Positions 8,720 to 52,179 of a DNA stretch of 64,000 nucleotides are shown in pieces. A program made the position numbers and the translations under genes. Position 1 is the stretch's first letter; each line of letters starts with the position of its first letter. The stretch is from assembly GCA_000091205.1 (NCBI GenBank), contig AP006488.2; one strand, 5' to 3'. This DNA is from Cyanidioschyzon merolae (Eukaryota). The notes under the pieces are model-generated. The model did not search any database. It was given only the letters and a program-made list of their open reading frames with translations, and was not told where the DNA came from.

Positions 8720-10167
8720 ACCAGTGTAAGCACAATATGGGAGAGACCCTTTTCTGCTGGCGTACACGCTAACGTTTGGGTCGCGTCCCACGCTGATCGA
8801 CACCAGCCTTTGTTCGCGTTTTCTACCACCGCCTCCTTTTGCTCGCTTTTAGCTCCAGCGTGAACTACGACGGTCTCAACTGTCCCGCCAGCTCCACTTT
8901 CAGGAGTCGAAGCATGTCGATGGCAGCGTTCAGGTCGCGGTTGCGCTGCCTCCGGCTGGTGTCAAGGCTCCGCCAGCACCGGCAAAAAAGGTCGCGATCG
9001 ACGCCTCGCTTGCCACCTTCGTGTTCTTTGAATGGAGCCACGAAGCGGCCCGGCACAGCGGTGACACTTGGCACTGGTCAGAGGCTCGAGCGTATTCACC
9101 ACACCCTGTGAGCCGCGGACGACCCTGTAGCGCGTCAGGGCTCGCTTCATCGCTCGGTAAACGCTCTACCTGGAACAGAAGCGTCCTATCAATACGATTC
9201 TCGGTCTCAACGACTGGTGCACTGTCCTAGAAGCACGGGATTCTCGCCGACGATACCCTGGGCGGGGGCTTTGCCCGCTGCACACACACACACACACACA
9301 TACGTACATCCATCCATCCATACATACATACATACGCACACACAGCATCGTGTGCAGTTCCATTCCATTGAGGGCTGTGGAGCGCGAGTTCTGCATAAGA
9401 TGGAACAATTGCCTTGACGAACTTGCTGGCTCTAGATCGAGTAGAGATACTGCGATCTGTCGAGGCTTCCTGCGACCAAGGCGGTGACACTTGTGGTACC
9501 ACAGGCGATCGCCGCGGTAATCGAGTCCCAAGTCGAGCATTCTTTTCCAAACAAACAGAAGAGACAGTGCTTCTCGGGGCTTGGTAACGAAGCGGTAGCA
9601 TACTGCTGCCGAATGCCGCCTCGATCCTGGTCACAGAGACCCGAGGATTCGTCTCCCGCACGGAATGGATTCCATGACGCCAGGAGTCCAGTGAACTCTC
9701 TGTGTGTGAGCTTGCGAACAGGTCGTCCGAGCACGACATACACTTCTCTCCATCTCCATCGGCCTGCCGGGCGCATATTGCTGCACCCAAGCGTTGCCTC
9801 AATATAGAACGATCGAAAACTTGAGGTATGCACGGCGTGAGCGTGCTGCTCACTCGCAAACGAGAGGACTGGCGGCTTGTACGCGTGCAACGGATGCTCA
9901 TTGCAATGTTTCCGTATGAACCGCTGTACGAGTGTATCGCGAAGCATCCTGACTCTGGTAGCGTGACGAATTCGGGCGGGACAGCGTCGAGGAAGCCGCA
10001 CCAAAACGTCGACCGATGATCCTGAAACGACGCATGAATCCATCATACGTTGTTGGTGCACCTCGAATGTCGAGCGTGTTCGTGTACCAAGAAAACGCTG
10101 GAGACAATATCCAGCGGCATCGACAGAACAAACAGTTCAGCGTTCCAGTTTGAGATCCGGAACGGAT
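8720..10167. repeat. Direct repeat, copy 1 (1448 bp); >98% identical to copy 2 at 17751-19202
   Basis: Both copies begin with 'ccagtgtaagcaca' and end with 'gttccagtttgagatccggaacggatg'. The six-frame ORFs inside are duplicated nearly residue-for-residue (8865-9074 = 17896-18105; 8839-9111 vs 17870-18142 differ by 1 aa). No recognisable protein domain. Confidence 0.85.
9281..9344. repeat. Compound microsatellite (CA)n followed by (CATC/CATA)n inside repeat copy 1
   Basis: 'cacacacacacacacacaca tacgtacatccatccatccatacatacatacatacgcacacaca' read directly. Confidence 0.9.
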
Positions 10168-10461
10168 GTAGACCGTGGCTCCCCATGTAACCAAATCGAA
10201 CGTCTTGAACGTCGTGAATTTCGCAAGAACGACTAGTGGAGCTCCCCGAGCTATCCGTTCAGGATCAGTTGCGGAAACTGGGGACGCTCCTAGCTGAGTG
10301 CATTCTGACGGTCTTCAGGAGCGGGGGGTCGCACACGAGCAAACCACCCACGTAGCAGGTCGTCGGAGTTTCACGCCCCGTTCCAAGGCCAGCAGTTAGA
10401 ACCTGGTTGCCGTAAACTGGGCCAGTCGGTTTGGGGCCTGGGGGTCGTTGCAGGCTTTCGC

Positions 10462-17608: not shown

Positions 17609-17750
17609 GGTTCAGCAGGGTAGGCTCGCTACCAGAGCGACTTGAGCTCACCAGAGCAGCGCATAATAGCATCTCCGTCGGATGCTCGACATGCTATAAA
17701 CAGAGGCAGGATCATTTACGATACCGCTTGTTCGTAAACCGGAATGGATG

Positions 17751-19202
17751 CCCAGTGTAAGCACAAAACGGGAGAGACCCTTTTCGGCTGGTGTACACGC
17801 TAACGTTTGGGTCGCGTCCCACGCTGATCGACACCAGCCTTTGTTCGCGTTTTCTACCACCGCCTCCTTTTGCTCGCTCTTAGCTCCAGCGTGAACTACG
17901 ACGGTCTCAACTGTCCCGCCAGCTCCACTTTCAGGAGTCGAAGCATGTCGATGGCAGCGTTCAGGTCGCGGTTGCGCTGCCTCCGGCTGGTGTCAAGGCT
18001 CCGCCAGCACCGGCAAAAAAGGTCGCGATCGACGCCTCGCTTGCCACCTTCGTGTTCTTTGAATGGAGCCACGAAGCGGCCCGGCACAGCGGTGACACTT
18101 GGCACTGGTCAGAGGCTCGAGCGTATTCACCACACCCTGTGAGCCGCGGACGACCCTGTAGCGCGTCAGGGCTCGCTTCATCGCTCGGTAAACGCTCTGC
18201 CTGGAACAGAAGCGTCCTATCAATACGATTCTCGGTGTCAACGACTGGTGCACTATCCTAGAAGCACGGGATTCTCGCCGACGATACCCTGGGCGGGGGC
18301 TTTGCCCGCTGCACACACACACACACACACTCATACGTACATCCATCCATCCATACATACATACATACGCACACACAGCATCGCGTGCAGTTCCATTCCA
18401 TTGAGGGCTGTGGAGCGCGAGTTCTGCATAAGATGGAACAATTGCCTTGACGAACTTGCTGGCTCTAGATCGAGTAGAGATACTGCGATCTGTCGAGGCT
18501 TCCTGCGACCAAGGCGGTGACACTTGTTGTACCACAGGCGATCGCCGCGGTAATCGAGTCCCAAGTCGAGCATTCTCTTCCAAACAAACAGAAGAGACAG
18601 TGCTTCTCGGGGCTTGGTAACGAAGCGGTAGCATACTGCTGCCGAATGCCGCCTCGATCCTGGTCACAGAGACCCGAGGATTCGTCTCCCGCACGGAATG
18701 GATTCCATGACGCCAGGAGTCCAGTGAACTCTCTGTGTGTGAGCTTGCGAACAGGTCGTCCGAGCACGACATACACCTCTCTCCATCTCCATCGGCCTGC
18801 CGGGCGCATATTGCTGCACCCCAAGCGTTGCCTCAATATAGAACGATCGAAAACTTGAGGTATGCACGGTGTGAGCGTGCTGCTCACTCGCAAACGAGAG
18901 GACTGGCGGCTTGTACGCGTGCAACGGATGCTCATTGCAATGTTTCCGTATGAACCGCTGTACGAGTGTATCGCGAAGCATCCTGACTCTGGTAGCGTGA
19001 CGAATTCGGGCGGGACAGCGTCGAGGAAGCCGCACCAAAACGTCGACCGATGATCCTAAAACGACGCATGAATCCATCATACGTTGTTGGTGCACCTCGA
19101 ATGTCGAGCGTGTTCGTGTACCAAGAAAACGCTGGAGACAATATCCAGCGGCATCGACAGAACAAACAGTTCAGCGTTCCAGTTTGAGATCCGGAACGGA
19201 TG
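17751..19202. repeat. Direct repeat, copy 2 (1452 bp); partner of 8720-10167, with the same compound (CA)n/(CATC)n microsatellite at 18312-18378
   Basis: Same start and end motifs and duplicated ORF peptides as copy 1. The offset between copies is 9,031 bp. Confidence 0.85.
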
Positions 19203-19335
19203 AAGATGCTCTCCGATGGAGCTCTTGTCAAATGTAACCTGCCTTTCCACGCGAATGACTGAGCGTCGGGGCCTCTCAACGATGATTCTTTCACAAAATC
19301 TGCCACTCCTAGTAAACCTTACCCGAATTTACAGG

Positions 19336-22870: not shown

Positions 22871-23392
22871 AACTTGAGAAAATACGGAAAACTCTGTTCC
22901 ATATGCAACGCTGAACATGAAGCTTGAATGAAAGTGTTATCCAGGTGCTTGTCAGTTGTCACTTTCTGTACTCTCGAACAGACTTTCTCGCAGGGTATTT
23001 GTGCCCGGAAATTGTTGCTCGTTGCCAATCTTCAGGAAACAGCATCGCCACCGGAGTATTCGGAATGGATCGCTCTTTACAAGTTTGACGTCAACCTCTT
23101 CAAACGCGGATGAGCATAATCGACGCACAACGACAGTCAGGTATCTGGATCATACATAGGCATACTTTCATGGACACACTTGGGAGTAACATGGCGGTCT
23201 CGGAATTCCCGTGGAGGACGTTCCCAGCGCTTGACCTGGCGATGCGTCCGAAAGCGCACCTGTGCAATGCGTTCCGCGAAGCACATGTCCGTAGACGGGC
23301 CGGGGCGCGAGAAAACTTTACTTCTGGCGTCTGCAGTCACTTTAGGGCTTTGCGCTGCGTTCAATATACGCTGACGATCCTGTACTCCGTCA

Positions 23393-28227: not shown

Positions 28228-29886
28228 CGGCTCGCTATCGCTCTGGTTGCGGTAGGGACAGGTGTCGTGCGTGTCGCGGCCTAGTGCTGTGGGGGCAACG
28301 GCTAAGAAGCACACTGCAGCGGTTCAGTGGTGGTATTATTGCGAAGGTGCACGGGGCTCTGGCCAAAAGCTCACTGGCACCAGAAGCTCGGCGAGTGGTC
28401 GCTGGGTGCGCACCAGATGTTCGCGCGATCGGAGAGCAACCGTGTCCGATACGAGAATCAACGTCGTGGATCAGGTTTGGTGGCGTGGAGCCCGCGGGAA
28501 CTTTTGGGTCTGAGGCTGGTCTAGGGAGCGCACCCGTTTTTGGTCTCGTGTGCGTAACGCGGACGCGGCACCGACTGAATGATCGCAGAAGCTGTTTTTG
28601 AACTAGGCATGTGCGGAAGCGCACCGCGACCGTAAACCGAGCATCCGCAACACATGAAGTCTCCGGCTGAGTGCACGCAGTCTCGCACGTTAGGTTTGCG
28701 CAATCGTAGGATACGCCGCACCTCTCCAGCTGGTGCGCTTCTTGCCTCGGTTCGTTGCAGGGAAACGGGGATGCGTCCTAATGGACGTCTGGGGGCATGC
28801 TAGTGCAGCGTTGAAATGTCGATGTTCTGCTTTCCAGAACGTCGTTTTTTTTTGAGGAGACGAGCTACGTCTTCTCCGATTCCGCATGTGGTTGATCAAG
28901 CACCCTGGCGACGGAATGTGAGGTTGCCGACGAAAAATGTACGTCTCGAAGGAGCGGTTTCACTACTGGTACGCTTCGATCTGGACATGCCGCATCATCG
29001 CCGTCTCGTTAGCTCGACCGATGGATTTTGAGCATCGCGCACACGAACCTGTTCCTTTGACATGCAATAACGGTACACTGAAGTGCCTGCGCTGTTCCTG
29101 ACTTGCGACGTTTTTCCGAATTTTTGTTAAATGGACAGCATCGATGTTGGACGTGCAGCAATAAACGATAGAATGCATTCCTTTTCCTATGATTTTCGGT
29201 TGTGTATTCGGAGTGGCTCCTTCGATTCTTTACGCCGGAAATTCTGACGTCACCGGGATCTGGCTGATTTACGAAGCCCGCCAATAGAGCCCAGGAAAAT
29301 GACCGATATGATCCTGCAATGCTTCCATACAAGCCTACATTCTGCTCCTCTTCTTACATGAAGCATACTCGATTATCGCATGCTGCAAGTTTTTGAGGGT
29401 TCTTGTTCACTGTAAGCTGTGGGCGCGGCAACTCGCGCCCCGGGATCGACAAGGAAACGTCTGGAAGACATCGCTTGACGACGTCTTTGCAAGCTCATGC
29501 CGATCGTTCACTGCAGTGGTCATCTCAAAGGATGGATTCCGTTCGAAAGATGAAACCTCGTTTTTTTTCTGGTCATCGAAGAAACTGCTCCAGACAGCAG
29601 CATGATAGCGCTCACGGGATCTGCACCGAGAGGTTCCCGTCCCTGTTGTCTGCGGGGAGAAGGGCCTCAGGCTCGGACGCGAGTCATTGCGGCGATTGCC
29701 TGCCGTGGAGCAAGTCTCATCGTTTTGTGCGAAGGGTGCCTAGACGAATTGCAAGTTCACATGTTTTTTCCAATGTCCATTTTCCAGCGGTAGCTTTTTT
29801 CAGCGTGTACAACATCGCATTCCGCAAATCCTCTATCGAATGAAATAGCTCGCAGGTGCATGTGAACCGGACCCAATGCTCGCCGA

Positions 29887-30236
29887 ATGTTTCTCCAGGG
29901 GGAAGTACGCGATCGTCCGGTGCGGTACCAGGAGCGGTACCGGAGGTCGGCACAGAGAGCGGAGCCTTCTGTACCAGTCAACGGCACGTACCGGGCGACG
30001 AAGAAGATGTTAACGGGGCGCCGGGCAGCGCTCGGCGGTGCTGCGTTGTCGACATATGGGAAGACCTTGTTACATTCAAGTGTTCACGCTGCGAAGATCG
30101 CAACGAAGCTGTAACCAATGAAGAAGGACATAGTAGGCAAAGCGTCGATAGCGCCCTCCGCCCGTACATCGAATGCGTGGACCACTGCTGGAAGCCACGA
30201 GATCGGGACTCGAACGCCGCCATCACTATGCTTTGA
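29887..30236 (+). mobile_element. TnpB/Fanzor-like (OMEGA-type RuvC nuclease) C-terminal remnant, subtype 1; frameshifted pseudogene
   Basis: Two overlapping frames give '...ALSTYGKTLLHSSV' (RuvC-II-like 'yGk.vv') then 'TFKCSRCEDRNE...RPYIECVDHCWKPRDRDSNAAITML'. This is a CxxC...CxxxC zinc finger followed by an 'RDxNAAxN' RuvC-III-like motif, characteristic of TnpB/Cas12/Fanzor. Stops and frameshifts are present. Confidence 0.55.
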
Positions 30237-30559
30237 CTGTGAACATCGTAGCTGGAAAGAAAGGGCACACCAGCTACTTGAAAACTGGAGATGTGGTAGA
30301 GAAACGAATCCGTAGTAGGAACAGCTCGCCGAGGTCGCAGTTGCGAAACACCTGGGAGCAAAGCAAACCGAATCGTGCACATCGGCATGATCAAAGTGTA
30401 CCCGTCCCATTCCAAGCTAACGTGGATAGATACCACTGCCATGATCAAATCGCTTGTAGACTATCAACGTACTTTGGGTTCACCCCTGATACGGTACATA
30501 GCAGGAGATCGAATTCGCGATGCAATGTAATCTATAGATTGGAGACGGATTGCCTGTAG

Positions 30560-31390
30560 AATAGATTCATTTCTGAACAGTACATAGCGGACTGTGTTCC
30601 TCCTTCAGTTCAGTTATACGACAGTACTCAGATGGTTGAGGAAGACTGATAAATACAAGAAGATACGCGCTGTGCCAAAAACTGATATTCTCAAAAGTGC
30701 TTTCGGTCCGTGGCAGAAAACGACCTGTTGATTACCGTACAGGAAGCAAAACCGACGATCGTAACGACCACAAGCGTCTCTGTTTCTCAACAGATTGTAA
30801 GTACCGTCCTGAAAACAATGGGATCTAGTTGCAGATAAAGAGTCCTTGGTCATACACGGCAAACTTCCAGCGAAATCGCAACGAATACAGCGTTCCTGGA
30901 AAGTCATTGTAAGTATGAAACACGGGCACGTCGCTGTGTTTGTTCAGTCAATGAAACTTGCTTCGGAAGAAACGATCGGACCATGCACGGGTATCTTCGA
31001 GGTGCATGGAGCTCTTTTTATGTACGATCAAACTCGAAGCGAACGATAACACCATCTCTTCTATCTGGAGTGTATTCATTTGGCGACCTCAGTTTCGATC
31101 GCAGAGGAGGCTTGTAGATCAGCATCCGCTTTGTCGAATCATTGAAGACTTTCCTCTGACGTCTTGCGCCGTCCTGCTGTTGGACAACATGACATTTCAC
31201 CATTCGGGTTGCAAGCGTGATTCTGTCTATTCTCACTAGGTAAAGCTGGTTTTCGTTCCCCAGTACTTTTCGTTGGTCGACCCCATCGAGGGAGTCTGCT
31301 CTATCGTGAAACGTAGTCATCGCTCCAATGGGCGATTCGCTGAAGCGTTCAGCGCACGGTGACCCACCGGGGCACATGTCGTCTCTCTTC
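30560..31390 (+). mobile_element. Tc1/mariner (IS630-like) DDE transposase remnant, copy A; multiple frameshifts
   Basis: Frames give 'TVLRWLRKTDKYKKIRAVPKTDILKSAFGP' (HTH region), 'VQSMKLASEETIGPCTGIF', 'LLLDNMTFHHSG' (DDE 'DNAxxH' motif) and 'VPQYFSLVDPIEGVCSIVKR' (the 'PPYSPDLNPIENVW' motif). Each segment has a counterpart in copy B at 46640-47730. Confidence 0.65.
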
Positions 31391-31830
31391 CACAAGTCCT
31401 TGTCTCTCGGGGAAGACGCTCACCCAGGGTCGTCAAGAAATGCGTTTATCTTGAAAAAATCAAAGGGAAAGTTATGGACATGCAACTCGAAGATGCTTGA
31501 GAGCGCCGTCACCACCCCGTTCCACAAAAAACGAAAAAGATCCGTTTCTCGCCAAGTACCGAGTGACGAAGAAGACGACGATGAGGGATAGACGAGAAAA
31601 ACAGGATGTTTGCCCTGCGGAACGATAATGAAACTACAGTGGTTCAGAGGGAGCGAATCCGAGGAATCCTCGCAACGCTGAATCCCATCAGATGCAAGAA
31701 ACGCATGGAGTTCGTGAACCGAGACCTTAACGCTGCTATGAATAGCAGACAATGTGCGATACTGAAGAAAATACCCGAGGAAAGAACACAATTGAACTTT
31801 CTGGGGCAGCCTCTTAGACTCTAGAAACGC
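31330..31830 (+). mobile_element. TnpB/Fanzor-like C-terminal remnant, subtype 2; pseudogene
   Basis: 'FILKKSKGKLWTCNSKML...' (RuvC-II/ZnF-like 'kGk...TSqtCs') then 'NPIRCKKRMEFVNRDLNAAMNSRQCAILKK...NFLGQPLRL'. It is homologous to the minus-strand copy at 41440-41890 ('ADCNARREFQNRYVNAAINTRRCAVL...NFVAQPLRL'; 'FSNLWTGASSRLQC'). Confidence 0.55.
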
Positions 31831-31940
31831 ACAAGGAGAAGCTGAAACTCATAGGAGGCCACCGGTCGAAGAACGCCCGAGAAGCGTCTCGACGTTGGTG
31901 TGGATTCACGCGACAGCCGCGGAACTGCGCTTGAGAATTT

Positions 31941-39215: not shown

Positions 39216-40872
39216 ACTAACCGAACAGCGTTATACTTTCCTGCTTGAAACTTTCATTTCCTTGGAAACTGAGAGAGCGCGGTCATCCACGAAGAGCGGA
39301 TAGCGCGCGATGGGTTCCGCGTCATGCGCATGCGCGCTGCCCCGACGACACGCAGAGCGACCCGCGATGCCATGCCGATCAATCTGCGTCTCGGTGCCAC
39401 GTCTGTCCTGTCCAGCAATGTACAGAAGTGTAACAATATATAATTTCATCCCTTCATAGGTAGAAAAGAATCATCGTAGGATAGTTTCGTGCAAGGTCGA
39501 TGATTGAGCAGAGTCGACCTGCGCGTCGATCGTGGACGCATCGCGATCGATCTGCCCGCGAGGCTCGCAGGCGCTCGGCACACGCAAGACACTTGAATTG
39601 CGAGTGGGTACACCATCAGCGTACGCCAGCTTCTTCAAGCGAGGTTCATCGTGAGCGACCAGGGGCGCGTCTTGTGCATGCGCATGGACAGCATGGTCAC
39701 GAGCTATGCGCCGTTGAGTGAGTTTGCCTGCATCCGCTACCGTCGGTGCACATCGAGCTCACGTGAGACAGCGCGTGCATGACATCTGCAAATGCGATAC
39801 ACACGAACGGAGTACGCTTCTGTGCGGCACGTGCGCTAGAAGTGGACGCGCGGCCTTGTAGCAGCTCGATTCGCTTCGTGGCGAGGACGAGGCTTCTGTG
39901 AGTACAGAGCCATGGTGACTTGACGACGATTGCTGTTAGAGTTTGATTCGAACGGGAGATAAAACCCCATCTATATCTGAGGTTACGAACGGCATTCAGC
40001 TTGTTCGCCAGGGTATCTTATCAAATTCGAAAAATTTCTTTGTATGGTTTCGCCAGAGTATCGTAGTATGCTGAACCGTTCCATCTGTTCATGCCGTTCG
40101 ATTCGTGGTTGAACTCTTGTCGTACATTCATGGAGTCGATATTCGAAGTCGAGCACGAAATGCTCAGTTATGCATACGGAATTTCATGATTCTCGGCTTT
40201 CTTTTCGCCGTGGCTCCTTCGACTCTCTGTCGATGGAATTCTTTGCGCCACCGCAGTCAAAATGATTCTCAAGGCCCGAAAACAATGGTTTATTACATAA
40301 CGAATACCGTTATCCCGTTCCTGGATACGCGTCGCCGTGCTTCTCTCTTCCTTACATGCAACATGCTCAAATCGCGCATTCTTCAGATTTTCGAAACTTC
40401 CATTTCAAGGCAAATGATGGATGCAGCGATTCGCACACCACGATGGATGAAGGAAAGATATCGATCTCGTCGCTTGGCGACCTGTCCGCACGCTCATATC
40501 AAATCTACTGACCTTGTCAGGTCAAAAAATGAATTCATATGGAAGGACAAATTCCAATGTGTTTGTGGCTGTCAACTATACGGCATTCCACACCAGCATC
40601 ATCCATCTCACGGAAAATGCTTGCAGACGCTCCCGTCTTGTCTGTGTGCGTGGAGGAGGGCCACGGCCTCGGATTTGAGTCACCATTGCGATCGTATGAA
40701 ATGGAGAATGTGTCATAGGTTTACCCGAAGCGAGAAACGTCGGGTCGAAGTCGCGCGAACTCTCCTGCAGACTGGATTTTCCTTACTGCACTTGTATCAT
40801 TATAGACAGCATCAGGTTCGAAAAATCCTCCACCGAATGAAACATCGTGCGCTTGCACGCACAGCAGGTGAC

Positions 40873-41229
40873 CTACTGGCCTGGGGGATCGCCCAGAGCA
40901 TGCTGGAAATCGTAGTGAGCTGCCCAGCGCGCGCAAACGGAATAGGGCATAAAAGCGAGCCCCCTGTCTCCGTCAAAGGGATGTACACGGCGATGAGGCA
41001 AGCATTCACGCAGCACAGGGCAGCACCTGGACGATGAATCGTGGTGGACACATACGGGAACACCTGACCACAGCCGTATGGCAGCGTTGGAAATGCAGCA
41101 TCCCGACGTTATGCAAGGAATCTGATAATGGCAAGCGATGTATGGATTACAACTCTCGCATGTGCACATCCGCCGACCACAACAGCCGACAACATCGAAA
41201 TTCGAAGTTTTTAACGCTACGATCACCAT
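40873..41229 (-). mobile_element. TnpB/Fanzor-like C-terminal remnant, subtype 1 (second locus); pseudogene
   Basis: 'CTCESCNPYIACHYQIPCITSGCCISNAAIRLW' parallels 'CSRCEDRNE...RPYIECVDHCWKPRDRDSNAAITML' at 29.9-30.2 kb: Cys-rich zinc-finger remnant plus 'SNAAI' motif. Confidence 0.45.
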
Positions 41230-41439
41230 TCTTTGACTGCTGACAACTCATCCGGGTGCAACGGAGTCACTAGCATATTCGAATCCATAGATAAAAGAGA
41301 AAAATTGAACCAGTTGCCGAAAAACCCGCAAAGACTGGTTCTGATGACAGTAGTACGTGACCCGCAGGTTAGTGTTCATGCGCAAGGTTCAAAGCCTATT
41401 TCCGACATATTCAGAAAAAAGTTTCCCAGAAATCGTTGA

Positions 41440-41890
41440 TCAATCAAAAAATGCCCCATGACTATCGATCGTAAACGTATACCCACTCACAGGTCCCTCC
41501 TGGCCTTTGTCGACGAGCCATCTGCCATTGGCTTCAGCTTTTTCTTGTACACTATGAGTCTGAGAGGCTGCGCTACGAAGTTCGCTTGCCTCATCTCCGC
41601 GGTTGTCGTCGTCAGCACCGCGCATCGTCTGGTATTGATTGCGGCATTGACGTATCGATTCTGGAACTCCCTGCGTGCATTGCAGTCGGCTGGACGCACC
41701 AGTCCAAAGATTACTAAAACTGGTCCACTCAGTGTCGATTTCTTCCCGCCATCGTCCCGTCGGTCGTAAACATTTTTGTCGTCCAATTCCCAGTTTCTTC
41801 TTCTTCCTCGTTACTTGCACTTCTCCATTCTTTGATATGGAAAAAGAGGATTTCTTTCGTGTTTTTCCGGCAGTCGGTGACATCGGCCCT
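41440..41890 (-). mobile_element. TnpB/Fanzor-like C-terminal remnant, subtype 2 (second locus); pseudogene
   Basis: '...KKLGIGRQKC...WTSFSNLWTGASSRLQC' and 'VRPADCNARREFQNRYVNAAINTRRCAVL...NFVAQPLRL'. The 'vNAAiNi.RRc' string is a close match to the TnpB RuvC-III consensus, and the segment is homologous to 31330-31830. Confidence 0.55.
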
Positions 41891-42289
41891 CCGGGAACCT
41901 CGATTCCCTTATCCGCAATGTTCTTTATTTTTTATTTCTGAAAAAGAGCGTAATTTGAACGCGTCTGCTATAAACCGCGAAAACACGTTTCATGACACGC
42001 ACCTGGCGATTGAACCCAACTGAGGTAAAAGACGATGCTTTGCGGTGGCGTCAACGTCGATACCTCTCGTACGTTAGAGCTTCATGCAAATGATAAGAAA
42101 CGTGTTTCCCTTCAACGCCAAGACGCATATCGTGTTTCATGCCTTCCAGATGTGGAGCTGCACGTATCTGTCGCGCTACAGAAAAGGAACAGAAACGACC
42201 CATTAACTAGCATCTGGATAAAATTTCATTTCCCTCGCTATGGTAACCGTTGAACGAGAGAAAATCTTTCCATATTGCCGAGAGTTCAG

Positions 42290-42470
42290 CTTACAGGCAA
42301 AGGGTCCTGCGAGCCGAACGAGTCTCCCAGGCTCGTGGTTCATGTCCCTCTCTCTCAGTGGCAGGTGCTTCAATGCGATCTGAGCAACTCGTCTGCAACG
42401 CAATTCATTCTGGGACTGGGAGCGGGTATGCTCCGTCTAGGTGTCGCCCTGCTTTGCGGGAGTGTCCTAG
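42290..42470 (+). repeat. Short dispersed repeat, copy 2 (partner of 22690-22870)
   Basis: See copy 1; nucleotide alignment done by eye over ~150-180 bp. Confidence 0.55.
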
Positions 42471-43571
42471 CACACCGCTTCGCGCTGTCGCAGGAAGTAG
42501 GTCCGTTAGCGCAGCTTGCAGGCTCCCGGAATTATTATATACGCCATTCCCGTGTTACGCGAACCACGCCTCGAGCCGACGTCCGCTGTCGTATGGCAAC
42601 GCCGTTCTATCTGCGTGCTGCATCAGTACCAGAGGTGGGAGCGCAATGCCGGATGTTCACGGCGTGCATTCGGCGCACAATAGAACGTCTGAAGCGACCA
42701 GTATATATCCGGGAACAGGTCATGGAACTTGGAGGTAGGGTGCAGCATGATACACGCTTTGCTGAAAGCCATTATCCATCTTGCAGTCTGGGATCCATGG
42801 TCCATGGAAACGTTTCGTCATCGAAGAAAACGGCGCCGCCAGCGACGCTTCCGAACGAAGCACCCATAACGTTCCTCAATTTTCCAATAAAGTCCATAAA
42901 AATCCGATATCGTCTATACCCAATCATCCAAAGCGCCACCATCGTGCAGTGCGCGGGAAAGCGAGTCCCAAAGTGCATGTGCCGGCGGGTGCTGGCCTCC
43001 GATCTGTTCGTGTGCGTGCGGTGCGCCTCCGCAGCAGCACACCATGCAAGGCGGTGCCATCGAGTGTCCAATTTCGGCACCGGGCGGTGTCGTGTTCACC
43101 ATTTCGCGCGCCGTGCGTGTCGTGCAGTCGACTTCCGTACGACAGACGCTGCCTGACGAAACATACTGCACACGCACGATTTCGGTGACTGTCTGTCCTC
43201 CACGCGGTATTGCGTGGAATCGATGCCTAGATCTCCAGGGGTGTGCGTCGAGGAGCAGAGGACCGGAACCTACCCGGTGACTTTGAGTGCGTTGGACTGC
43301 GTGCTGCTAGGTGCACATTTCGCTGAAGAGGAGCGTAGACGGGCGCTGCGTTCCGCGGTTGGAGAGCTTGAGACCAGTCTTGCGCCGTGAGGCGAGTTGG
43401 TCTCTATCTGGGTAGAAGAGACTCTGGGGCGTGAGCTTTTAAGGGGAAGCTCTACGAAGGTGGCGCGCACTTGTGCGGAACGAGCGCATGCGCGACTTGA
43501 AGCAGTCTCGCTGAACTGGGTCTCAACGACAACGATAGCTCTTTGTTTATCAGTTGTTGTGATTTGGAAGA

Positions 43572-45500: not shown

Positions 45501-46639
45501 ATGACACAACTGCTCGTGAAGACCACCACTAGATAAGCTCATAGTGCAGAGGAGCCCGCGCTTTTCGCTGGCTCGCCCAGCGACTTTATCTTGAGGCAGA
45601 GGTAGTTCACAGTTGAAGGGCTTCCTGGGAACCGAGAGCGGGAGCTCCAGATTCCCATCTTTTCCGGGTTTTGCGCTCTCGTTTGGACTCCATCCAGGGT
45701 AGGCAGTTGCACGTGTCCCGCGGAATCGACTGCGATGTACGGCGGCCTGTCCGCCGTGTTGCTTGACAGCAAAGGTTGAAGAAACGATGTTCATCTGCCT
45801 TCACTCTACACAGAAAACAGCTTCCTTTGAAAGCGGAGACCGGACAATATCTTGGAAATGGACCCTATACAAAACCCCGTAAACAGTGTAGCCAACAATG
45901 GCGACGCATCGACAATGGCACCCTTCCCCAGAAACCAGTTCCCGCAGATGCTGATCTGGCAACCTAGACCCGAGGCTGGTTTGAGGCACTGTTGCAGACG
46001 ATGTTTTTTTTTCTCGTTTGTGCGCATTTGCTACCCTTAGAGTCGGCACTGTTGGCTCACCGGTAACCGGCGAGTTTGATCAACTCGTGTGTCGCACAGA
46101 GCAGAAGCGCGCTTCTGACGTCATGAACGAGTGAAAAACTGTTTCGTATCGATGAAGTAGAATTCAAGTCCCCAAACAGCTTCCTTTTTGATATATGGAT
46201 ATGGGTACGAGCAGGGAAACGGACCCCAGCACCTCTGCAGACGCGCCCGAGTTCCAAGTGCCGTACACCTCTATGAAAGCTCGTCGCACCTGGTTCAGGG
46301 ACGGTGCCGTCGCAAACGCAAAACACACACGAGAGATTATCGAGACATAGCACATTTTCAGGGAGTCGCCAGCTCCTTTAGCTATCCTCGAGTCTTTATG
46401 GCGCAGTGCTTAAGAAGCGAACATGTTTCGCGAGCATAGGGAAAGTGAATATCCATTCAGAGTCACCTACCAGCCTTTTTTGACCGGCTGCCTGCAACCG
46501 GTTTCAGCTTCTTCTTGTACACTTCGAGTATGACTGGCTACCCTAGGAATTTGGATCGCGTCAGCACCTTGGGGCTCTTCCTCAGAACCGCACATCTTCT
46601 GATATTGACAGCGGCGTTCCAGTCTCGGTTCACGACCTC

Positions 46640-47730
46640 CATGCGTTAGGTGCCACTGACGGAACGCACCAGTGCAGGGGGTCGTCGATGTCGCACCCTT
46701 GGTGCCCTTCTCGCTCTGTCAGCGCTCCGTGCTTTTCTATTGCCGGAGCGCTCCACTGACTCTTCCCGACCGCGACTCTCTGAAGTGTACACCCCAGCGC
46801 ATCCTTTGGATTGTGATTTCTTCAAATGAACGCTCTTGTTTATGCCTCTAGGTAAGGTCCGTTTCTGGAGAAGACGGACTTGCGGAAGAAAGACGACATC
46901 CACCCGGGCGTGACACTGTGTGCTGAAAGCTTCAGCGATTCGCCCAGTGGAGCGATCATCAGCTTGCAGGATAGAAAAGGCTCCTTCGATTCTGTTCAGC
47001 CACGGAGCGTACGGAGGAATGGAACGCAGCTCGAATCCGCGGCAGCATCGGCCAAAGCTCGAACGTATGCGACGTGGAGGAATACCACGTTCTCCCATAG
47101 AGGGATGCTACCAGGCGTCAGGGACAAAGGTCTTCAACAATTCGATAAAGTTGTTGCTGTAGTAGGAGCCTTCCCTACGAGCGAAACTGAGCACGCTACT
47201 GGAATCCGCTTCAGTTAGAACAGATGATGATATCCTCGTTCTCTTCGAATTCGATCGTTCATACAACGTGCGCCCTGCGCTGCGGATACCTGTAGATGCT
47301 CCGATCGTTTCGGCCGAAGCAAGTCTCATGGACTGAAACAACAACAAACCAGTACTACTCTGCTTCATACAGATCGCGACGCTCTAGAGACACTGCCGTT
47401 GCGACTTTGGTGCAAGATGGCCATGCATGAAATCGGACGGTTTGGCGACTGAATCGCTGTGTTTTCAGGACCACACAAACGAGATGTTGATAAGCAGCGA
47501 CGCCCATGGTGGCTTCTACCGTCGCTCCAGCTTCCCCTGAAATGATCAATCGGTCGTTTTCTACCATAGATCCGAAGCACGCTTTAAGAATGTCTTTTTT
47601 TAGCGCGGAGCGCATCCACTTGTTTGTCACTGTGTTCCCCAACCATCTGCGTACTGTGGCATGACTGACCAGAAAGAGGAACGCAGTCCTCGTTCTACTG
47701 TTCCGTACTAAATGCGTATCCAACGGGCAA
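46640..47730 (-). mobile_element. Tc1/mariner (IS630-like) DDE transposase remnant, copy B (inverted relative to copy A)
   Basis: Minus-strand frames: 'AFLFLVSHATVRRWLGNTVTNKWMRSALKKDILKACFGSMVENDRL', 'FQSMRLASAETIGASTGI', 'PPYAPWLNRIEGAFSILQ'. The antisense peptide 'RKKDDIHPGVTLCAESFSDSPSGAIISLQDRKGSFDSVQPRSV' mirrors the antisense peptide of copy A, 'WKRDDMCPGGSPCAERFSESPIGAMTTFHDRADSLDGVDQRKV'. Confidence 0.65.
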
Positions 47731-48949
47731 CTCGTCTACGATTGATTCAGTACATGGCATCCGGAATTCGATCTCCTGCTATATACCACATCTGAGGGTG
47801 AATCAAGATTGACTTGGGAGACTATGTTCATCGAACGAGTGCTGCAGAGCGTATCCATCGCTTGAACCGGTATTAGAGTTCGAATTTTTTGGAGATGTTT
47901 GTCTGATTGGATACGGCATCTCGGGTAGTTTCTAAAACCGGTTTATCGCTGCAGGTAATTCCAAAGTTTGGTACCTGTAATGCAGTTTCCTTCTCGTTGC
48001 GCGATGATTCCAGAGCGTAGGGCGCGGTGCATCGACCCCGTGAACCGCACGGTACGCCAACACTGTCCCGTTTCCGGATGACGCTCGATGCAGAATGCTT
48101 TCCTGCCCGGCACACGTACTGATCGAGCCTGCACTGGTCGGCAGAGCATCGGAATGGGGCTCATCGTGAGCCCGCCGAGGAACTACGGTCCATACCTGAA
48201 ACCGATGTGGGGTTTTGCGTAACCGAAGATACTCTGTTCAGACGCATCGGTGCTGCAGCGGAGAGAAACGAGCAACCCGCGGGCTACAGGTTATACCTGT
48301 ACCCCAGCGAGTGAAGCACCGATCCCGGGGAATGCATCGAAGAAATGTGGCATTTATGTGCATTGCAACACTCAAGCACAAAACCCTCAAAGCTCCTTAG
48401 AACGCTACAATGTTGGCTGGCGTGTCGAACACATGTAACGCGGTAGCGCTGCAGCAGCTCGAAGACGCACCGTTGACTCGTGTTCGTTGATTATTCTAGC
48501 AAGCAGCTTACGAGCAGATCGATAAACGATTGTTAATCATCGCCGCTAGCATGACGCTTGCTGTTGAGCGGAACCGCGCGGAATCGACCTGCGCCCCGCA
48601 CGACGGTACTTTTTGTTCTGCCGCCAGTGTGTGTGTGTGTGTGTGCTTCCGTTGCGTACAGCTAGTTCGTGGTGCATCTGCGTTTCCGGGCTCCATCCTG
48701 TATGAGACTTGAGATTCCGAGTTCTCCTGCACGCGTCTGGGAACGACTGTGGGTGCAACACGCGGCGGGCGCCCCTATTTTGTACACTGCTCGTCGGAGC
48801 GAGCAGGGAAACCAGAGCGCAAGCCGGGCAGTATCGCATTCGCAAAAGGAATCCCGTAAACGCGAAACAACGTCAAACACTCGCAGATACCAGCGTATCT
48901 GTCGGTTCTAGTCGCTGCATACAACCAGTGTCCGGACACAAATACACAC

Positions 48950-50236
48950 CTATTCAATACGCCCGGGGTTTGCGTTACGACTCTTGTGCGCATCGCTCGT
49001 CGCCGATAACCGCTCTGGAAGCTGGTCCACATGAAATGGGAACATTTCGCCCTCTGCTATCGCTCGAATGCCTTCACGATAGCTGGGGTACCACAGATCT
49101 GCCGAGCCGCCCAGCAGGACTGCCTTTGCCGTGTGGTTGCGGATGCGCTTCTGGAGGCGGGATTCCGAAGAAATCGCGCTTAACTGACCCGTTCTGGACT
49201 GCGCTGCATAGTCCTCAACCTGAGCACGCGTCGCAGGTTCATTGTCCACCAGGTTGAAGACGCCCTTTGCTCTCTGTGCAACACCGCTGAGCAGGAGACG
49301 CGCAGCGTCGGCAACGTGTATTCGATTCACCAGCGTATCACGCGGTCGCCGCGATCCTTGCCTAGTTTCGCTGTGCTCGTGGTAGGCCAACATCGTGTCC
49401 AGGACACTGCGACGTGTCCATCCACGCTTGCCTCTTAGCGATGGTGGAATCGGACCGTATACGGCCCCAAGTCGGAAGCGGGCGAGTCGCACTTCCAGTC
49501 GATGTGCGAGCTCTCCTGCTCGCTGTTCAGCCTGCCAACATGCCGCTGCTTTCTCTGTGGATAAGTCGAGTGGAGCGCTTTCGTCGATCCAGGACTCTCC
49601 TCCAGGCGCATACAGACTCGTGCTCGACAGGAGACCTATCCACCGTAACGAGGGGAGGAGTCCGTCTCCGACTACGTGCTCCAACCAGGAAATCCATTCG
49701 CCGTGCACAAGTACGTGTGTGATCAATTTCAGGTGATCTGGCTCAACACATTGTGAAAGCGACAGGCAAACTCGATCTTGGAGCAGCAGGCGATAGTCAG
49801 CGACCTCCGAACCCTGACGATAACACGCAACGACGCTTTGTGGCAAGGCTGGAGCCGAGTCTTCCGCGCCTGAATGTGGCTGCGGGCTTGTTTCACAGTG
49901 CTTTCCGTGCACCCAAAGGCAAGCCACTGCAGTGGTAACATAGCCCAGAGGCACAATGAGTAGGCTTGTTGGCGAGGTCTCGCGCTCAGTGACGAGCCTC
50001 CACGAGCTGAGACGGGACGCGAGCCCAGGACGTTGCAATCTACTGAGCGCTCTCAAGGGAAAGCGGTGACCTGGTAAAGTCCTCGTCGGCTGCTGCACGA
50101 AAAGAAGAGCAGGGTATGGTCTACCACGCCTTTGAACAGTGGTTTTCGCGGTTTGCATCAGTACGGCAAACGTCGAGCGTTCTTGGGAACGAGTTGTTGC
50201 TGCGAGCGTATACACCCTTGACAGAATAAAGCGCAA
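48950..50236 (-). CDS. NAD(P)-dependent epimerase/dehydratase-like (SDR39U1/YfcH-like) protein; 5' extent uncertain
   Basis: The C-terminal half reads 'ARFRLGAVYGP...RIHVADAARLLLSGVAQRAKGVFNLVDNEPATRAQVEDYAA', typical of the SDR epimerase family. A degenerate 'VLVHGEW' aligns to the Gly-rich NAD motif. The first ~100 codons of the ORF are probably not coding. Confidence 0.45.
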   Translation of the reverse strand: MRFILSRVYTLAATTRSQERSTFAVLMQTAKTTVQRRGRPYPALLFVQQPTRTLPGHRFPLRALSRLQRPGLASRLSSWRLVTERETSPTSLLIVPLGYVTTAVACLWVHGKHCETSPQPHSGAEDSAPALPQSVVACYRQGSEVADYRLLLQDRVCLSLSQCVEPDHLKLITHVLVHGEWISWLEHVVGDGLLPSLRWIGLLSSTSLYAPGGESWIDESAPLDLSTEKAAACWQAEQRAGELAHRLEVRLARFRLGAVYGPIPPSLRGKRGWTRRSVLDTMLAYHEHSETRQGSRRPRDTLVNRIHVADAARLLLSGVAQRAKGVFNLVDNEPATRAQVEDYAAQSRTGQLSAISSESRLQKRIRNHTAKAVLLGGSADLWYPSYREGIRAIAEGEMFPFHVDQLPERLSATSDAHKSRNANPGRIE

Positions 50237-52179
50237 AAGGACCTCTTAGCCAGCTCTGGTGGACACACCCAAGTGTGGAACTCTTCCAGCTATCATGAAA
50301 ACCAGCCTTTGCGGATTCTTTCTGCGACTGCTTCCCCTGCTACCGCTCATATGTCCGGCCAAGTGACGTCAGTCTCTGCATTCACACCTGCACGGCTTGC
50401 AGCACCCGACGAATATTCGCAGGAGTTTTCAAGTCCAGATTTGACCAGTTCCGACTCTCGTTGACGCATGTCATGAACTTTTGGAATTTGCGATTCATGT
50501 TTCGTCTGCCGTTCACAGCTTGTTTGTTTACAGCAACTGTGCATGATTCGCAGCCATGACATCTGATTGTGGTGAGGTGTTCTCCTATGCCAAGCACAGC
50601 TCCTCCTGTTCCTGTTCCTGTTCCTGTGAGGTCTCCCCTATCGCACGTGAACGCTTGCTCCGTCGCTCAGTGCATGCGAGTGACGGGTACAGAGGGCTCG
50701 TCACGATACTATACTCCCTTTTGCGCGTCTGCTACCGTACGCTGGGATCACGGGTTTCTTCTAGGCGACATCCTCAGGGGTTACGCTGCACGCTGTATGC
50801 CCAGGCATACGCTGGTCTATTTCACAGCGGATCTGTGGAACGCTGTGGTATCCATGACAGGAACAAGTACCGGAAGAATGATACAAGCGAGAGGCCGCTA
50901 AAATGAAAACCTTCTCTCCATGTACACTCCATTCATACAAAGCAGCGACGCACTCCACATTGAAAGCGCTCGTTACGATCACTCGAGTCCGAGCCCAGGA
51001 CCCTCATCCACGTAAACGGAAAAGACGCTCGCGCCCCTGCGAGCATACTCCGAGAAGGGCTTCATGCTGCTGTCTAATGCTGTGCCGTGGATGACGGCAA
51101 CGACAGATCGATTTGTCGCTCGAACTGCAAGGATTCTTTGATGTGACAAGTTTCGTGAGCTTGCGGCATACGCTTGTGAAGAGCCCGTAACGAAACGATA
51201 CCGAGTTATTCGTCCTCGTCAGTCGAGCGGCGCGTATCGCTGTGCCCACGAGTTGCCTTGAAACGTACAGATCAAAAACTTGGAGGATGCGTCATTGGGG
51301 CGTGCTTTTCTTAAAAAAACAGAAGCGTCAAGGCCGATCCCTCCGCCTTGGATACTGGTATCGATTATTTTACGAACCCCTGTTCCGGGGCGTCGCAAGC
51401 GATCGTAGGTCCGGTGACGAAGCGCACCCCGACGACAACACGTCGAAGGAGCCGCTTCCAAAACTACGACCGAGAATCCGAAACCTATGCATCCATCGGC
51501 AAGTGCATATGCCTGCGCTTTGTGTTTCTCGATGTTGCCCATTCGAAACCAGATTAGAGAAAACGAAAAGCCATGAAAAGCGCTAGCAATGCAGTGTTCC
51601 AGGTTCACCTAACACTGGTATAGAGGATGCCTGCACAACAGCGCTGATGCAAAGTTCGTACGGTATCCCAATTTTCCTCGCCATTGCCTGATGTATAAAA
51701 CGTGTTACCTGGATTAGAGTGAATGAGTGACACTTACCAGACGTCTTGCATTTCCAGGAAAAATGGCTTCTGGGAACGCACAACGCACCCTTCTGAGTGC
51801 CTGCAGCGTTCACGTTGATGCGTTCACATAACAAGTTGCAGGTTTCGCCTCAGCCGGTGACAGAATAGGGCGCAAACTCTTTTCCGTGCGGCGAAAGATG
51901 GGCACGCGTGCATCACCTGGGCACGAAGCATCCGAAACTGATGCATTCCACCAAAAAAAGTGTCACTGCAAAACTGTGCCGGTTTCACTGCGTCTCTGTG
52001 GCACAGTCGCTGTCCAGTTCGCAGGCTCGGGGGCGACGAGACCCGTGTTCTCTCGGAGGATACCCTGGACCGGCGCTGGCAGTCGAGACAACCCGGTAGG
52101 GGCTCTCTCGCCCAGAGACGCCTCGTAGATGCGGCGAGTTGCATCCAGTTGCAACAAGCGACTGTGGATCGCCGTCCGT

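What the first reader, a model, noticed from the sequence alone, without database searches (positions are those of the whole stretch)
29400..31900. Nest of TnpB/Fanzor-like (RNA-guided RuvC nuclease family) pseudogene fragments interleaved with a mariner-type DDE transposase
Between the AFG3-like gene and CPSF30, the plus strand carries two independent C-terminal fragments with a zinc finger followed by an 'RDxNAAxN' RuvC-III-like motif ('FKCSRCEDR...YIECVDHCWKPRDRDSNAAITML' and 'NPIRCKKRMEFVNRDLNAAMNSRQCAIL'). That motif is the signature of prokaryotic TnpB and its eukaryotic descendants, the Fanzors. A frameshifted Tc1/mariner DDE transposase ('LLLDNMTFHHSG', 'VPQYFSLVDPIEGVCSIVKR') lies between them, at 30.56-31.39 kb. 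Fanzor1 genes are known to ride inside Tc1/mariner and other DNA transposons, so this may be a decayed Fanzor-bearing composite element. No bounding element could be delimited. The fragments are clearly pseudogenes, but intact relatives may exist elsewhere in this genome.
Basis: partly seen in the sequence, partly recalled or inferred. Interest (0 to 1): 0.72.

Follow-up and report, generated by a model that had tools for sequence, protein, structure and literature searches.

The report
Dead Fanzor1 transposon copies, red alga

Summary
The window is Cyanidioschyzon merolae 10D, the chromosome that carries CMF167C.

The interval 29.05-31.9 kb is filled by two dead elements, head to tail on the + strand:

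- **Family A copy (29047-30425).** This is a complete copy of a ~1.45 kb non-autonomous element. Its 3' half is the C-terminal third of a Fanzor1 gene and contains 'frag1'. The window holds six copies.
- **Composite copy (about 30490-31900).** This is an internally deleted mariner/IS630-type (DDE_3) plus Fanzor1 element. It has a frameshifted, nearly full-length transposase, then the first ~45 and last ~65 codons of a CMe-1-type Fanzor1 ('frag2').

So the DDE gene and frag2 belong to one element. Frag1 belongs to a separate one.

An intact 3.45 kb relative exists in a metagenome contig (L008). It has 28-nt TIRs, a 300-aa DDE transposase and a 702-aa Fanzor1 with the D/E/D RuvC residues.

Nothing in the window is functional: RuvC-I is missing from every family A copy and from both deleted composites.

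Bao & Jurka (2013) already described Fanzor1 element CMe-1A in C. merolae (~150 copies, unclassified) and mariner-Fanzor1 composites elsewhere. Two details are not in that paper: the DDE_3 link for the CMe-1 lineage, and a second Fanzor1 family (A). Interest is low.

The parts
29047..30425 (+). Family A element copy A4. It is full length relative to the sharp-ended 1.45 kb copies and non-autonomous. Its 3' half is a Fanzor1 C-terminal pseudogene.
   Evidence: DNA alignment with five other copies. The ends were mapped against copy A3. The consensus of the family matches a Fanzor1 profile at 62.7 bits.
29953..30233 (+). It runs in frame +1 over 29953-30057, then shifts to frame +3 over 30045-30233. 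It carries the RuvC-II Glu (IWE), CxxC...CxxC and RDSNAAIT.
   Evidence: tblastn of intact relatives: P0148 aa 354-428, P0117 aa 590-652, P0106 aa 431-493. ORF list.
30490..31900 (+). Element B1: an internally deleted mariner/IS630-type plus Fanzor1 composite. The ends are approximate (about +/-20 bp).
   Evidence: Collinear ~69-72% DNA identity with 46466-47860 (-) and with L003 9057-10365.
30525..31326 (+). DDE_3 transposase pseudogene covering aa 1-268 of 300, with at least two frameshifts and stop codons.
   Evidence: tblastn of the intact L008 transposase. The stitched peptide matches PF13358 at 31.7 bits (cut-off 28.6).
31438..31590 (+). 5' remnant of the Fanzor1 gene: the start-codon region and about 45 N-terminal codons, including a KKRK stretch.
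   Evidence: blastn match to CMe-1A 869-933. The continuation was read by eye against the CMe-1A sequence.
31627..31821 (+). It corresponds to CMe-1 aa 639-704 and carries the RuvC-III motif RDLNAAMN.
   Evidence: tblastn of the CMe-1 protein, E 2e-14. blastn match to CMe-1A 2890-3010 at 76%. L008 Fanzor aa 641-692 also match.
46466..47860 (-). Element B2, a second copy of the same deleted composite. The transposase lies at 46889-47723 and the Fanzor1 3' end at 46460-46802.
41496..42823 (-). Internally deleted CMe-1A copy: consensus positions 1-967 joined to 2897-3077.
   Evidence: blastn of the CMe-1A consensus.
58347..60739 (+). Near full-length but decayed composite: transposase aa 137-278 followed by Fanzor1 aa 97-600.
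   Evidence: tblastn of the L008 proteins. ORF 58176-58814 matches DDE_3 at E 1.8e-6.
17752..19206 (-). Family A copy A3. It is 98.8% identical to A2 (8721-10172) and the shared sequence has sharp ends.
   Evidence: blastn.
8721..10172 (-). Family A copy A2.
   Evidence: blastn.
4480..5800 (-). Family A copy A1.
40100..41450 (+). Family A copy A5.
50230..51520 (-). Family A copy A6.

Best explanation
The interval is transposon debris in an intergenic region of Cyanidioschyzon merolae 10D. Two dead elements lie head to tail on the + strand.

**Element 1 (29047-30425).** This is a copy of a ~1.45 kb non-autonomous family ('A'). It keeps only the last ~250 codons of a Fanzor1 gene: the RuvC-II Glu, a C4 zinc ribbon and the RuvC-III Asp.

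**Element 2 (about 30490-31900).** This is a mariner/IS630-type element that once carried a CMe-1-type Fanzor1 gene downstream of its DDE transposase gene. An internal deletion removed Fanzor1 codons ~50-630. It left the transposase (now frameshifted), the Fanzor1 start region, and its last ~65 codons plus the 3' end.

**How the intact form works (inferred from family knowledge, not shown here).**
- The DDE transposase cuts and pastes the TIR-bounded element into TA sites.
- The Fanzor1 cargo is an omega-RNA-guided RuvC endonuclease whose RNA is transcribed from the transposon end.
- By analogy with TnpB, the nuclease is thought to cut element-free sites so that the element is kept or copied back.

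Nothing in the window can do any of this now. Every copy is a pseudogene.

The repeated survival of Fanzor C-terminal pieces is best explained by deletion derivatives. These must keep the element's 3' end, which overlaps the end of the Fanzor ORF.
For: **Organism**
- Four window ORFs are identical to C. merolae 10D proteins BAM79513, BAM79517, BAM79521 and BAM79524.

**frag2 and CMe-1A**
- 31694-31814 matches CMe-1A 2890-3010 at 76%.
- 31438-31501 matches CMe-1A 869-933.
- tblastn of CMe-1 aa 639-704 gives E 2e-14 (sequences from PMC3627910 supplements).

**Transposase**
- The stitched peptide scores 31.7 bits on DDE_3, above the cut-off.
- The remnant covers aa 1-268 of the intact L008 transposase.

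**One unit**
- The DDE gene plus frag2 are collinear at ~70% identity with 46466-47860 (-) and with L003 9057-10365.

**Intact model, L008**
- 28-nt TIRs.
- A 300-aa transposase with DETSF / LLDNVAFHH / PAYSPWFNPIE.
- A 702-aa Fanzor1 with GNDPG / VDEFRTT / NRDFNAAINI.
- Nine of 14 metagenome loci with a Fanzor ORF of at least 600 aa have the transposase directly upstream on the same strand.

**Family A**
- There are six copies, and the consensus restores a ~190-aa ORF.
- The consensus matches PF07282 at E 3e-5 and a Fanzor1 HMM at 62.7 bits.
- A profile holding the family A consensus with seven published Fanzor1 C-termini hits solved Fanzor1 structures best: 8GKH at E 6e-14, then 9CER and 9CF0.
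- Intact relatives are P0117, P0120, P0148 and P0106.

**Decay**
- Similarity between copies is about equal in all frames and on both strands.
- Stops and frameshifts occur throughout.
Against: - No TIRs or TA duplications could be found around the window copies, so their ends are defined only by where homology between copies stops.
- Pfam matches of single fragments are weak. frag2 scores E 0.14 and frag1 scores nothing. frag1 alone reaches only E 0.011-0.21 against the Fanzor1 profile.
- Whether the deletion derivative moved as a unit or arose more than once is inferred from three copies only.
- The role of Fanzor1 in element maintenance is an analogy with TnpB, not a demonstrated fact.
- The whole C. 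merolae genome could not be searched, so an intact copy in this genome is not excluded.
Confidence: 0.9

Rival explanations
1. All three pieces (frag1, the DDE gene, frag2) are the remains of one nested composite: a mariner element inserted into a single Fanzor gene, or one element carrying two Fanzor genes.
For: The pieces are adjacent, lie on the same strand, and are only about 65 bp apart.
Against: - frag1 and frag2 are both C-termini and belong to different lineages: 23% identity at E 4e-4, with no DNA match.
- The frag1 element is complete at both ends compared with the sharp-ended copies A2 and A3.
- That element occurs five more times in the window without any DDE gene next to it.
- The DDE plus frag2 unit occurs elsewhere without frag1.
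Confidence: 0.04
2. The motif matches are chance, or the fragments belong to an unrelated zinc-finger family.
For: Single-fragment Pfam scores are below threshold. phmmer of the consensus against PDB gave nothing.
Against: - The motif count is far above expectation: 5 hits against 0.005 expected.
- frag2 shows DNA-level homology to a published Fanzor1 element.
- Profile scores are 62.7 bits and E 6e-14 to SpuFz1.
- Intact relatives carry PF07282.
Confidence: 0.01
3. Some of these copies are still functional in a non-protein sense. In this view the retained 3' ends are omega-RNA genes or transposition signals, still used in trans by an intact Fanzor1 or transposase elsewhere in the genome.
For: - Deletion derivatives consistently keep the 3' ~270 bp.
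- In about 58 CMe-1A-type 3' ends, two hairpins are kept in 40 of 46 and 41 of 45 distinct variants, with compensatory forms.
- A2 and A3 are 98.8% identical with sharp ends, which implies recent copying of a non-coding element.
Against: - RNAalifold gave no consensus structure.
- The hairpins are not recognisable in the B1 copy of the finding.
- No intact Fanzor1 or transposase from C. merolae itself was found among named proteins.
- Rfam found nothing.
- Terminal hairpins could equally be transposase signals or terminators.
Confidence: 0.1

Closest known systems
CMe-1A / CMe-1 Fanzor1 element of Cyanidioschyzon merolae (Bao & Jurka 2013, Mob DNA 4:12, PMC3627910)
   Same: It comes from the same genome. 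frag2 and the start-codon remnant match its consensus at 75-76% DNA identity and 52-61% protein identity. Other window pieces match its 5' 967 bp (TE-N2_CMe region) at 77-78%.
   Different: - The published consensus has a non-coding 5' region, no transposase and no TIRs, and its class was left unknown. In the window copy a DDE_3 transposase gene sits where that 5' region would be.
- The window copy lacks Fanzor codons ~50-630.
Mariner-type Fanzor1 carriers PUl-1 (Pythium ultimum) and PGv-1 (Bao & Jurka 2013)
   Same: The architecture matches: a Tc1/mariner-type DDE transposase gene upstream of a Fanzor1 gene on the same strand. The intact relative L008 also has TIRs whose arms begin TATA, which is compatible with TA target duplication.
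   Different: The transposases are only distantly related: tblastn of the PUl-1 transposase gives E 0.025. The window copies have no detectable TIRs or TSDs.
Solved Fanzor1 nucleases: Spizellomyces punctatus Fz1 (PDB 8GKH), Guillardia theta Fz1 (9CER), Parasitella parasitica Fz1 (9CF0)
   Same: They are the best PDB matches of the C-terminal profile, at E 6e-14, 6e-11 and 2e-9. The match covers the RuvC-II, zinc-ribbon and RuvC-III region.
   Different: Those are intact, biochemically active omega-RNA-guided enzymes. The window holds only C-terminal pseudogene pieces without RuvC-I.
Prokaryotic TnpB of IS200/IS605 (e.g. ISDra2, PDB 8H1J, 8BF8, 8EXA)
   Same: They share the RuvC-II / TNB zinc ribbon / RuvC-III core (PF07282). 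They are hit by the profile at E 4e-5.
   Different: The relationship is much more distant than to Fanzor1. The carrier here is a DDE transposon in a eukaryotic chromosome, not a TnpA (Y1) element.

Membership tests
Fanzor1 / TnpB superfamily | RuvC-III motif (N)RD-x-NAA-x-N(I) at the C-terminus | tested here: met
   frag1 has RDSNAAIT and frag2 has RDLNAAMN. The motif is enriched about 1000-fold over expectation.
Fanzor1 / TnpB superfamily | C4 zinc ribbon (TNB domain, PF07282) between RuvC-II and RuvC-III | tested here: inconclusive
   - frag1 has CxxC...CxxC.
- The family A consensus scores 24.5 bits on PF07282 (E 3e-5), just under the 26.3 cut-off.
- The intact relative P0117 carries PF07282.
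- frag2 and its CMe-1 lineage lack the canonical cysteines.
Fanzor1 / TnpB superfamily | RuvC-II Glu followed by [TS][TS] | tested here: met
   - frag1 'VVDIWEDLVTFKC' aligns with 'VVDVWEYNTTQKC' of P0117.
- The family A consensus has 'IREHLTTVKC'.
- The feature is absent from frag2, where it was deleted.
Fanzor1 / TnpB superfamily | RuvC-I Asp | tested here: not met
   The family A consensus covers only the last ~250 aa of intact relatives. In B1 and B2 codons ~50-630 are deleted. The residue is present in intact relatives: GNDPG in P0090, GLDPG in P0120. This failure marks the copies as pseudogenes, not as non-members by descent.
Fanzor1 / TnpB superfamily | Significant profile similarity to Fanzor1 rather than to TnpB or Cas12 | tested here: met
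   A Fanzor1 HMM built without C. merolae sequences scores 62.7 bits, E 3e-18. PDB hits rank Fanzor1 first, then viral TnpB-like, then TnpB/Cas12f.
Fanzor1 / TnpB superfamily | Associated omega-RNA from the transposon 3' end; RNA-guided cleavage | not testable with these tools
   Conserved 3' hairpins are seen in related CMe-1A-type copies, but there is no RNA data. RNAalifold and Rfam gave nothing.
IS630/Tc1/mariner (Pfam DDE_3) | DDE_3 profile match at or above the gathering score | tested here: met
   The stitched B1 peptide scores 31.7 bits against a cut-off of 28.6. B2 scores 28.1 and the third copy 28.3.
IS630/Tc1/mariner (Pfam DDE_3) | Intact D, D, E catalytic triad | tested here: not met
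   In B1 the second Asp (LLLDNMTFHH) and the Glu (VDPIEG) are kept. The first Asp region reads 'VQSMKLASEE', and the frame is broken. The triad is intact in L008.
IS630/Tc1/mariner (Pfam DDE_3) | Terminal inverted repeats and TA target-site duplication | tested here: not met
   No TIRs were found around B1, B2 or the third copy. The intact relative L008 has 28-nt TIRs (79% complementary) whose arms begin TATA.
CMe-1A (Repbase/Bao & Jurka element) | DNA homology to the 3169-bp consensus across the element | tested here: inconclusive
   Only consensus positions 869-~1050 and ~2870-3077 are represented in B1. The consensus 5' 868 bp is replaced by a transposase gene. This points to a related subfamily rather than CMe-1A itself.

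The most novel reading that the evidence does not exclude
C. merolae is regarded as almost free of transposons. In the most novel reading, short non-coding Fanzor-derived elements are still being copied there. The evidence is the A2/A3 pair: 98.8% identical, with sharp ends and no ORF. In this reading the conserved hairpin-bearing 3' ends of deletion derivatives act as dispersed omega-RNA or transposition modules, served in trans by a still-active Fanzor1 or transposase somewhere in the genome.
Probability: 0.1. Interest if true: 0.55.

Novelty: new member of a known kind. Interest (0 to 1): 0.2.

Why it matters
It matters little beyond annotation. The result shows that this intergenic region is transposon debris, not genes.

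Three incremental points go beyond the 2013 description:
- The CMe-1 Fanzor1 lineage, left unclassified then, is tied to an IS630/mariner-type carrier.
- C. merolae holds a second, older Fanzor1 family.
- Intact relatives (P0051, P0090, P0117, P0120) are identified and could be tested as RNA-guided nucleases.

If the near-identical A2/A3 pair reflects recent mobility, it would bear on how Fanzor-derived elements persist in a very compact genome.

Tried and rejected
- **Pfam on single ORFs** gave only sub-threshold hits.
- **BLAST of the region against phage records** found nothing.
- **The search for homologous proteins with frag1 alone** returned no candidate, because too few 5-mers were shared.
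- **phmmer against PDB** with the family A consensus and with the CMe-1 protein found nothing. A profile was needed.
- **TIR search** around the window copies found nothing convincing.
- **The PUl-1 mariner transposase** as a probe gave only E 0.025.
- **RNAalifold on 56-59 3' ends** returned no consensus structure. The hairpins were assessed per sequence instead, which is weaker evidence.
- **Rfam** found nothing in the window.
- **An early reading of 'AFCTSQ' in frag1** as the TnpB 'TSxxC' motif was dropped. That stretch is out of the ancestral frame.
- **A 16-nt match between the B1 5' end and CMe-1A ~1550** (CAGGAGATCGAATTCG) was not pursued. My back-of-envelope estimate is about 0.1 such matches by chance.
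- **Prokaryotic contamination or horizontal TnpB** was rejected. The flanking genes are C. merolae nuclear genes and the best relatives are Fanzor1.
Full report
**1. The observation**

- frag1 lies in ORF 29856-30236 (+).
- frag2 lies in ORF 31606-31824 (+).
- The two DDE-like peptides lie at 31174-31320 (+).

The RuvC-III-like motif is far more frequent than chance allows. In the six-frame translation, RD.NAA.N occurs twice and a relaxed form five times. Two hundred first-order Markov simulations of the window gave 0.005 expected.

Minor corrections:
- frag1 ends RDSNAAIT.
- frag2 has one Cys and no zinc ribbon.
- The part of the frag1 ORF upstream of about 30045 is not in the ancestral reading frame.

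**2. Where the window comes from**

The window is a gene-dense eukaryotic sequence with long uninterrupted ORFs: B56, Vps54, cystathionine gamma-synthase, UTP7, an FtsH/AFG3-type protease, CPSF30, NOT1, EDC4 and Sec23.

Four of these ORFs are identical, residue for residue, to proteins of Cyanidioschyzon merolae strain 10D. These are BAM79513, BAM79517, BAM79521 (CMF167C) and BAM79524, on a 536,163-bp record.

**3. The fragments are members of repeat families**

Protein- and DNA-level self-comparison shows that neither fragment is unique.

*Family A (frag1).* This is a ~1.45 kb repeat with six copies in the window:

| Copy | Coordinates | Strand |
|---|---|---|
| A1 | 4480-5800 | - |
| A2 | 8721-10172 | - |
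| A3 | 17752-19206 | - |
| A4 | 29047-30425 | + |
| A5 | 40100-41450 | + |
| A6 | 50230-51520 | - |

- A2 and A3 are 98.8% identical over 1452-1455 bp with sharp ends. This gives the full length of the element.
- Aligned against them, the copy in the finding is complete at both ends.
- Similarity among the older copies is equally strong in all frames and on both strands. That indicates neutral decay.

*Family B (DDE segment plus frag2).* These two pieces form one unit. Positions 30490-31900 are collinear, at about 69-72% identity, with 46466-47860 (-). They are also collinear with a metagenome contig, L003 9057-10365.

**4. What family A is**

- A majority consensus of five copies (A2 was left out as a near-duplicate of A3) restores about 190 codons in one frame...KKPVIVGYGTRRANGG..EPSVPVKRMYRAMKQAF..VVDIREHLTTVKCQRCEGR..RNFRLCMTCVDNSRKQRNRDLNAAINML.
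- It matches Pfam PF07282 (Cas12f1-like TNB, formerly OrfB_Zn_ribbon) at E 3e-5 and 24.5 bits, just below the 26.3 cut-off.
- I built a profile from published Fanzor1 C-termini of Chlamydomonas, Chlorella and Pythium, using sequences from the supplements of PMC3627910. It contains no C. merolae sequence. The consensus scores 62.7 bits against it, E 3e-18.
- In a six-frame scan of the whole window with the version of that profile that also includes CMe-1, the eight best hits are exactly the predicted fragments. Without CMe-1 the same fragments still head the list.
- A profile including the consensus finds solved Fanzor1 structures first: 8GKH at E 6e-14, 9CER at 6e-11 and 9CF0 at 2e-9. Next come a mimivirus TnpB-like protein, then TnpB and Cas12f.
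- An exhaustive HMMER search with a related fragment (P0001) finds mostly short decayed ORFs, but also intact proteins. These are P0117 (682 aa, carrying PF07282), P0120 (756 aa), P0148 (551 aa) and P0106 (536 aa). They carry GLDPGR (ALDPGR in P0117 and P0106), WEHLTT.KC (WEYNTTQKC, WEFLSTQKC and WEHYTTQKC in the others) and NRDFNAAINI.
- The family A consensus corresponds only to their last ~250 residues. The element is therefore a truncated or deleted derivative that never includes RuvC-I.

**5. What frag2 and the DDE segment are**

Bao & Jurka (2013, PMC3627910) described a Fanzor1 element, CMe-1A, in C. merolae. It has a 3169-bp consensus, about 150 copies at ~80% identity, a 734-aa protein, no TIRs and an unknown class. 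Its 5' 635 bp equals TE-N2_CMe.

Using their consensus, the window matches as follows:

| Window | CMe-1A positions | Note |
|---|---|---|
| 31694-31814 | 2890-3010 | 76% identity |
| 31438-31501 | 869-933 | start-codon region |
| 41855-42823 (-) plus 41496-41676 (-) | 1-967 joined to 2897-3077 | internally deleted copy |
| 14537-14713 and 22344-22972 | 5' part | TE-N2_CMe region |

The DDE segment, stitched across frameshifts, scores 31.7 bits on PF13358 DDE_3 (cut-off 28.6). The second copy scores 28.1 and a third (ORF 58176-58814) 28.3.

**6. The intact model**

- Searching with the CMe-1 protein gave 43 relatives, all from metagenome or read-archive assemblies and none from NCBI.
- One relative, P0090, lies on a 3538-bp contig (L008) that appears to be a whole element:
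  - 28-nt terminal inverted repeats at 3-30 and 3429-3456;
  - a 300-aa DDE_3 transposase ORF with all three catalytic regions;
  - 190 bp downstream on the same strand, a 702-aa Fanzor1 ORF with RuvC-I, II and III residues.
- Mapped back on the window:

| Window element | Transposase residues | Fanzor residues |
|---|---|---|
| B1 | 1-268 at 30525-31326 | 641-692 at 31657-31815 |
| B2 | 11-285 | 649-696 |
| 58347-60739 | 137-278 | 97-600 |

  The third row is a nearly full-length but decayed copy.
- A scan of metagenome contigs returned 80 related loci. Of the 82 loci analysed (these 80 plus L007 and L008), 14 have a Fanzor ORF of at least 600 aa, and nine of them have the transposase directly upstream.
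- Of 39 loci with enough upstream sequence, 31 carry the CMe-1A-type 5' region instead, and these are mostly decayed.
- The mariner-plus-Fanzor1 arrangement itself is a published one (PUl-1, PGv-1).

**7. Mechanism**

*Shown:*
- the anatomy above;
- the pseudogene state of every window copy;
- the existence of intact relatives.

*Inferred from established knowledge:*
- The DDE transposase moves the TIR-bounded element by cut-and-paste.
- Fanzor1 is an omega-RNA-guided RuvC endonuclease whose RNA comes from the transposon end region (PMC10432273). By analogy with TnpB, it is thought to favour retention of the element.

*Inferred from the pattern of deletions:* C-terminal Fanzor pieces recur because non-autonomous derivatives must keep the element's 3' end, which overlaps the end of the ORF.

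In about 58 CMe-1A-type 3' ends from the fetched loci, two hairpins are preserved:
- A hairpin just after the stop codon is kept in 40 of 46 distinct variants.
- A hairpin at the very end is kept in 41 of 45 distinct variants.
- Alternative compensatory forms occur: CGUUCGA/UCGAACG, CGUUCUA/UAGAACG and CGUUUUUC/GAAAGGCG.

This fits an end-recognition or omega-RNA role, but it is weak evidence:
- RNAalifold gave no consensus.
- The hairpins are not recognisable in the copy inside the finding.

**8. Comparison with the known, and verdict**

These are Fanzor1 pseudogene fragments and a mariner-type DDE pseudogene, and the DDE gene plus frag2 are the remains of a Fanzor-bearing composite.

It needs two corrections. 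frag1 is a separate element, and frag2 has no zinc finger.

The family has been in the literature for this very genome since 2013, as has the composite architecture in other organisms.

Two details are not in that paper:
- the DDE_3 carrier for the CMe-1 lineage;
- a second Fanzor1 family in C. merolae. The paper's table lists one.

I could not consult Repbase, so even these may be catalogued. Interest is low (0.2).

The only thread with some promise is the near-identical, non-coding A2/A3 pair. It implies copying in the recent past.

Noticed in passing
window 8721-10172 and 17752-19206 (both -): Two family A copies are 98.8% identical over 1452-1455 bp, with sharp ends and unrelated flanks. 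Neither has an ORF that could encode a Fanzor, and both contain a (TG)n run. This implies recent copying of a non-autonomous element in a genome regarded as nearly transposon-free.
   Followed up: partly
window 17740-17751 versus 19195-19206: In gene orientation, the 12 nt just after the 3' end of copy A3 (CATCCATTCCGG) match the first 12 nt of the element (CATCCGTTCCGG) at 11 of 12 positions. Copy A2 shows nothing similar. This could be a target preference, a partial tandem copy, or chance. The element's 5' end also forms a small hairpin, ATCCG-TTC-CGGAT.
   Followed up: no
window 31900-31980: The 3' end of the deleted composite lies at most about 80 bp upstream of the CPSF30 start codon (31980). 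Transposon remnants fill essentially the whole of 29.05-31.9 kb. The CPSF30 promoter or 5' UTR may therefore be transposon-derived.
   Followed up: no
L091 (JGI 3300035702, Ga0399894_004485): P0148 is an intact family A-like Fanzor1. Its neighbours are genes with RNA_ligase, 2H-SAK and Peptidase_S74 domains, a virus-like context. This fits the published idea that viruses spread Fanzors.
   Followed up: no
loci L012-L089, 3' ends of CMe-1A-type copies: Two hairpins at the element's 3' end are preserved through compensatory variants: one just after the stop codon and one at the very end. The sequence just beyond the published consensus end is often G/T-rich and similar between copies (GTTTGTTG, GTTGTTGGTG, GTTCGGTG). 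So either the element extends further than the consensus, or it has a target preference.
   Followed up: partly
window 21640-22303 and 54527-54834: There are two tandem arrays. The first has an 86-bp unit repeated 7.7 times (98% matches) and lies directly next to a TE-N2_CMe-like copy (22344-22972). The second has a 103-bp unit repeated 3.0 times (99% matches) and lies just upstream of the EDC4-like gene.
   Followed up: no
L002 (Logan SRR29605816_68638), 1-617: This contig carries the identical CPSF30 ORF, but upstream of the start codon it switches to unrelated AT-rich sequence with a 205-aa ORF. It is probably a chimeric assembly.
   Followed up: no
window 30496-30525 versus CMe-1A ~1550-1575: The first conserved bases of the B-type unit contain a 16-nt exact match (CAGGAGATCGAATTCG) to an internal site of the CMe-1A coding region. 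It may be chance or a trace of a rearrangement.
   Followed up: no
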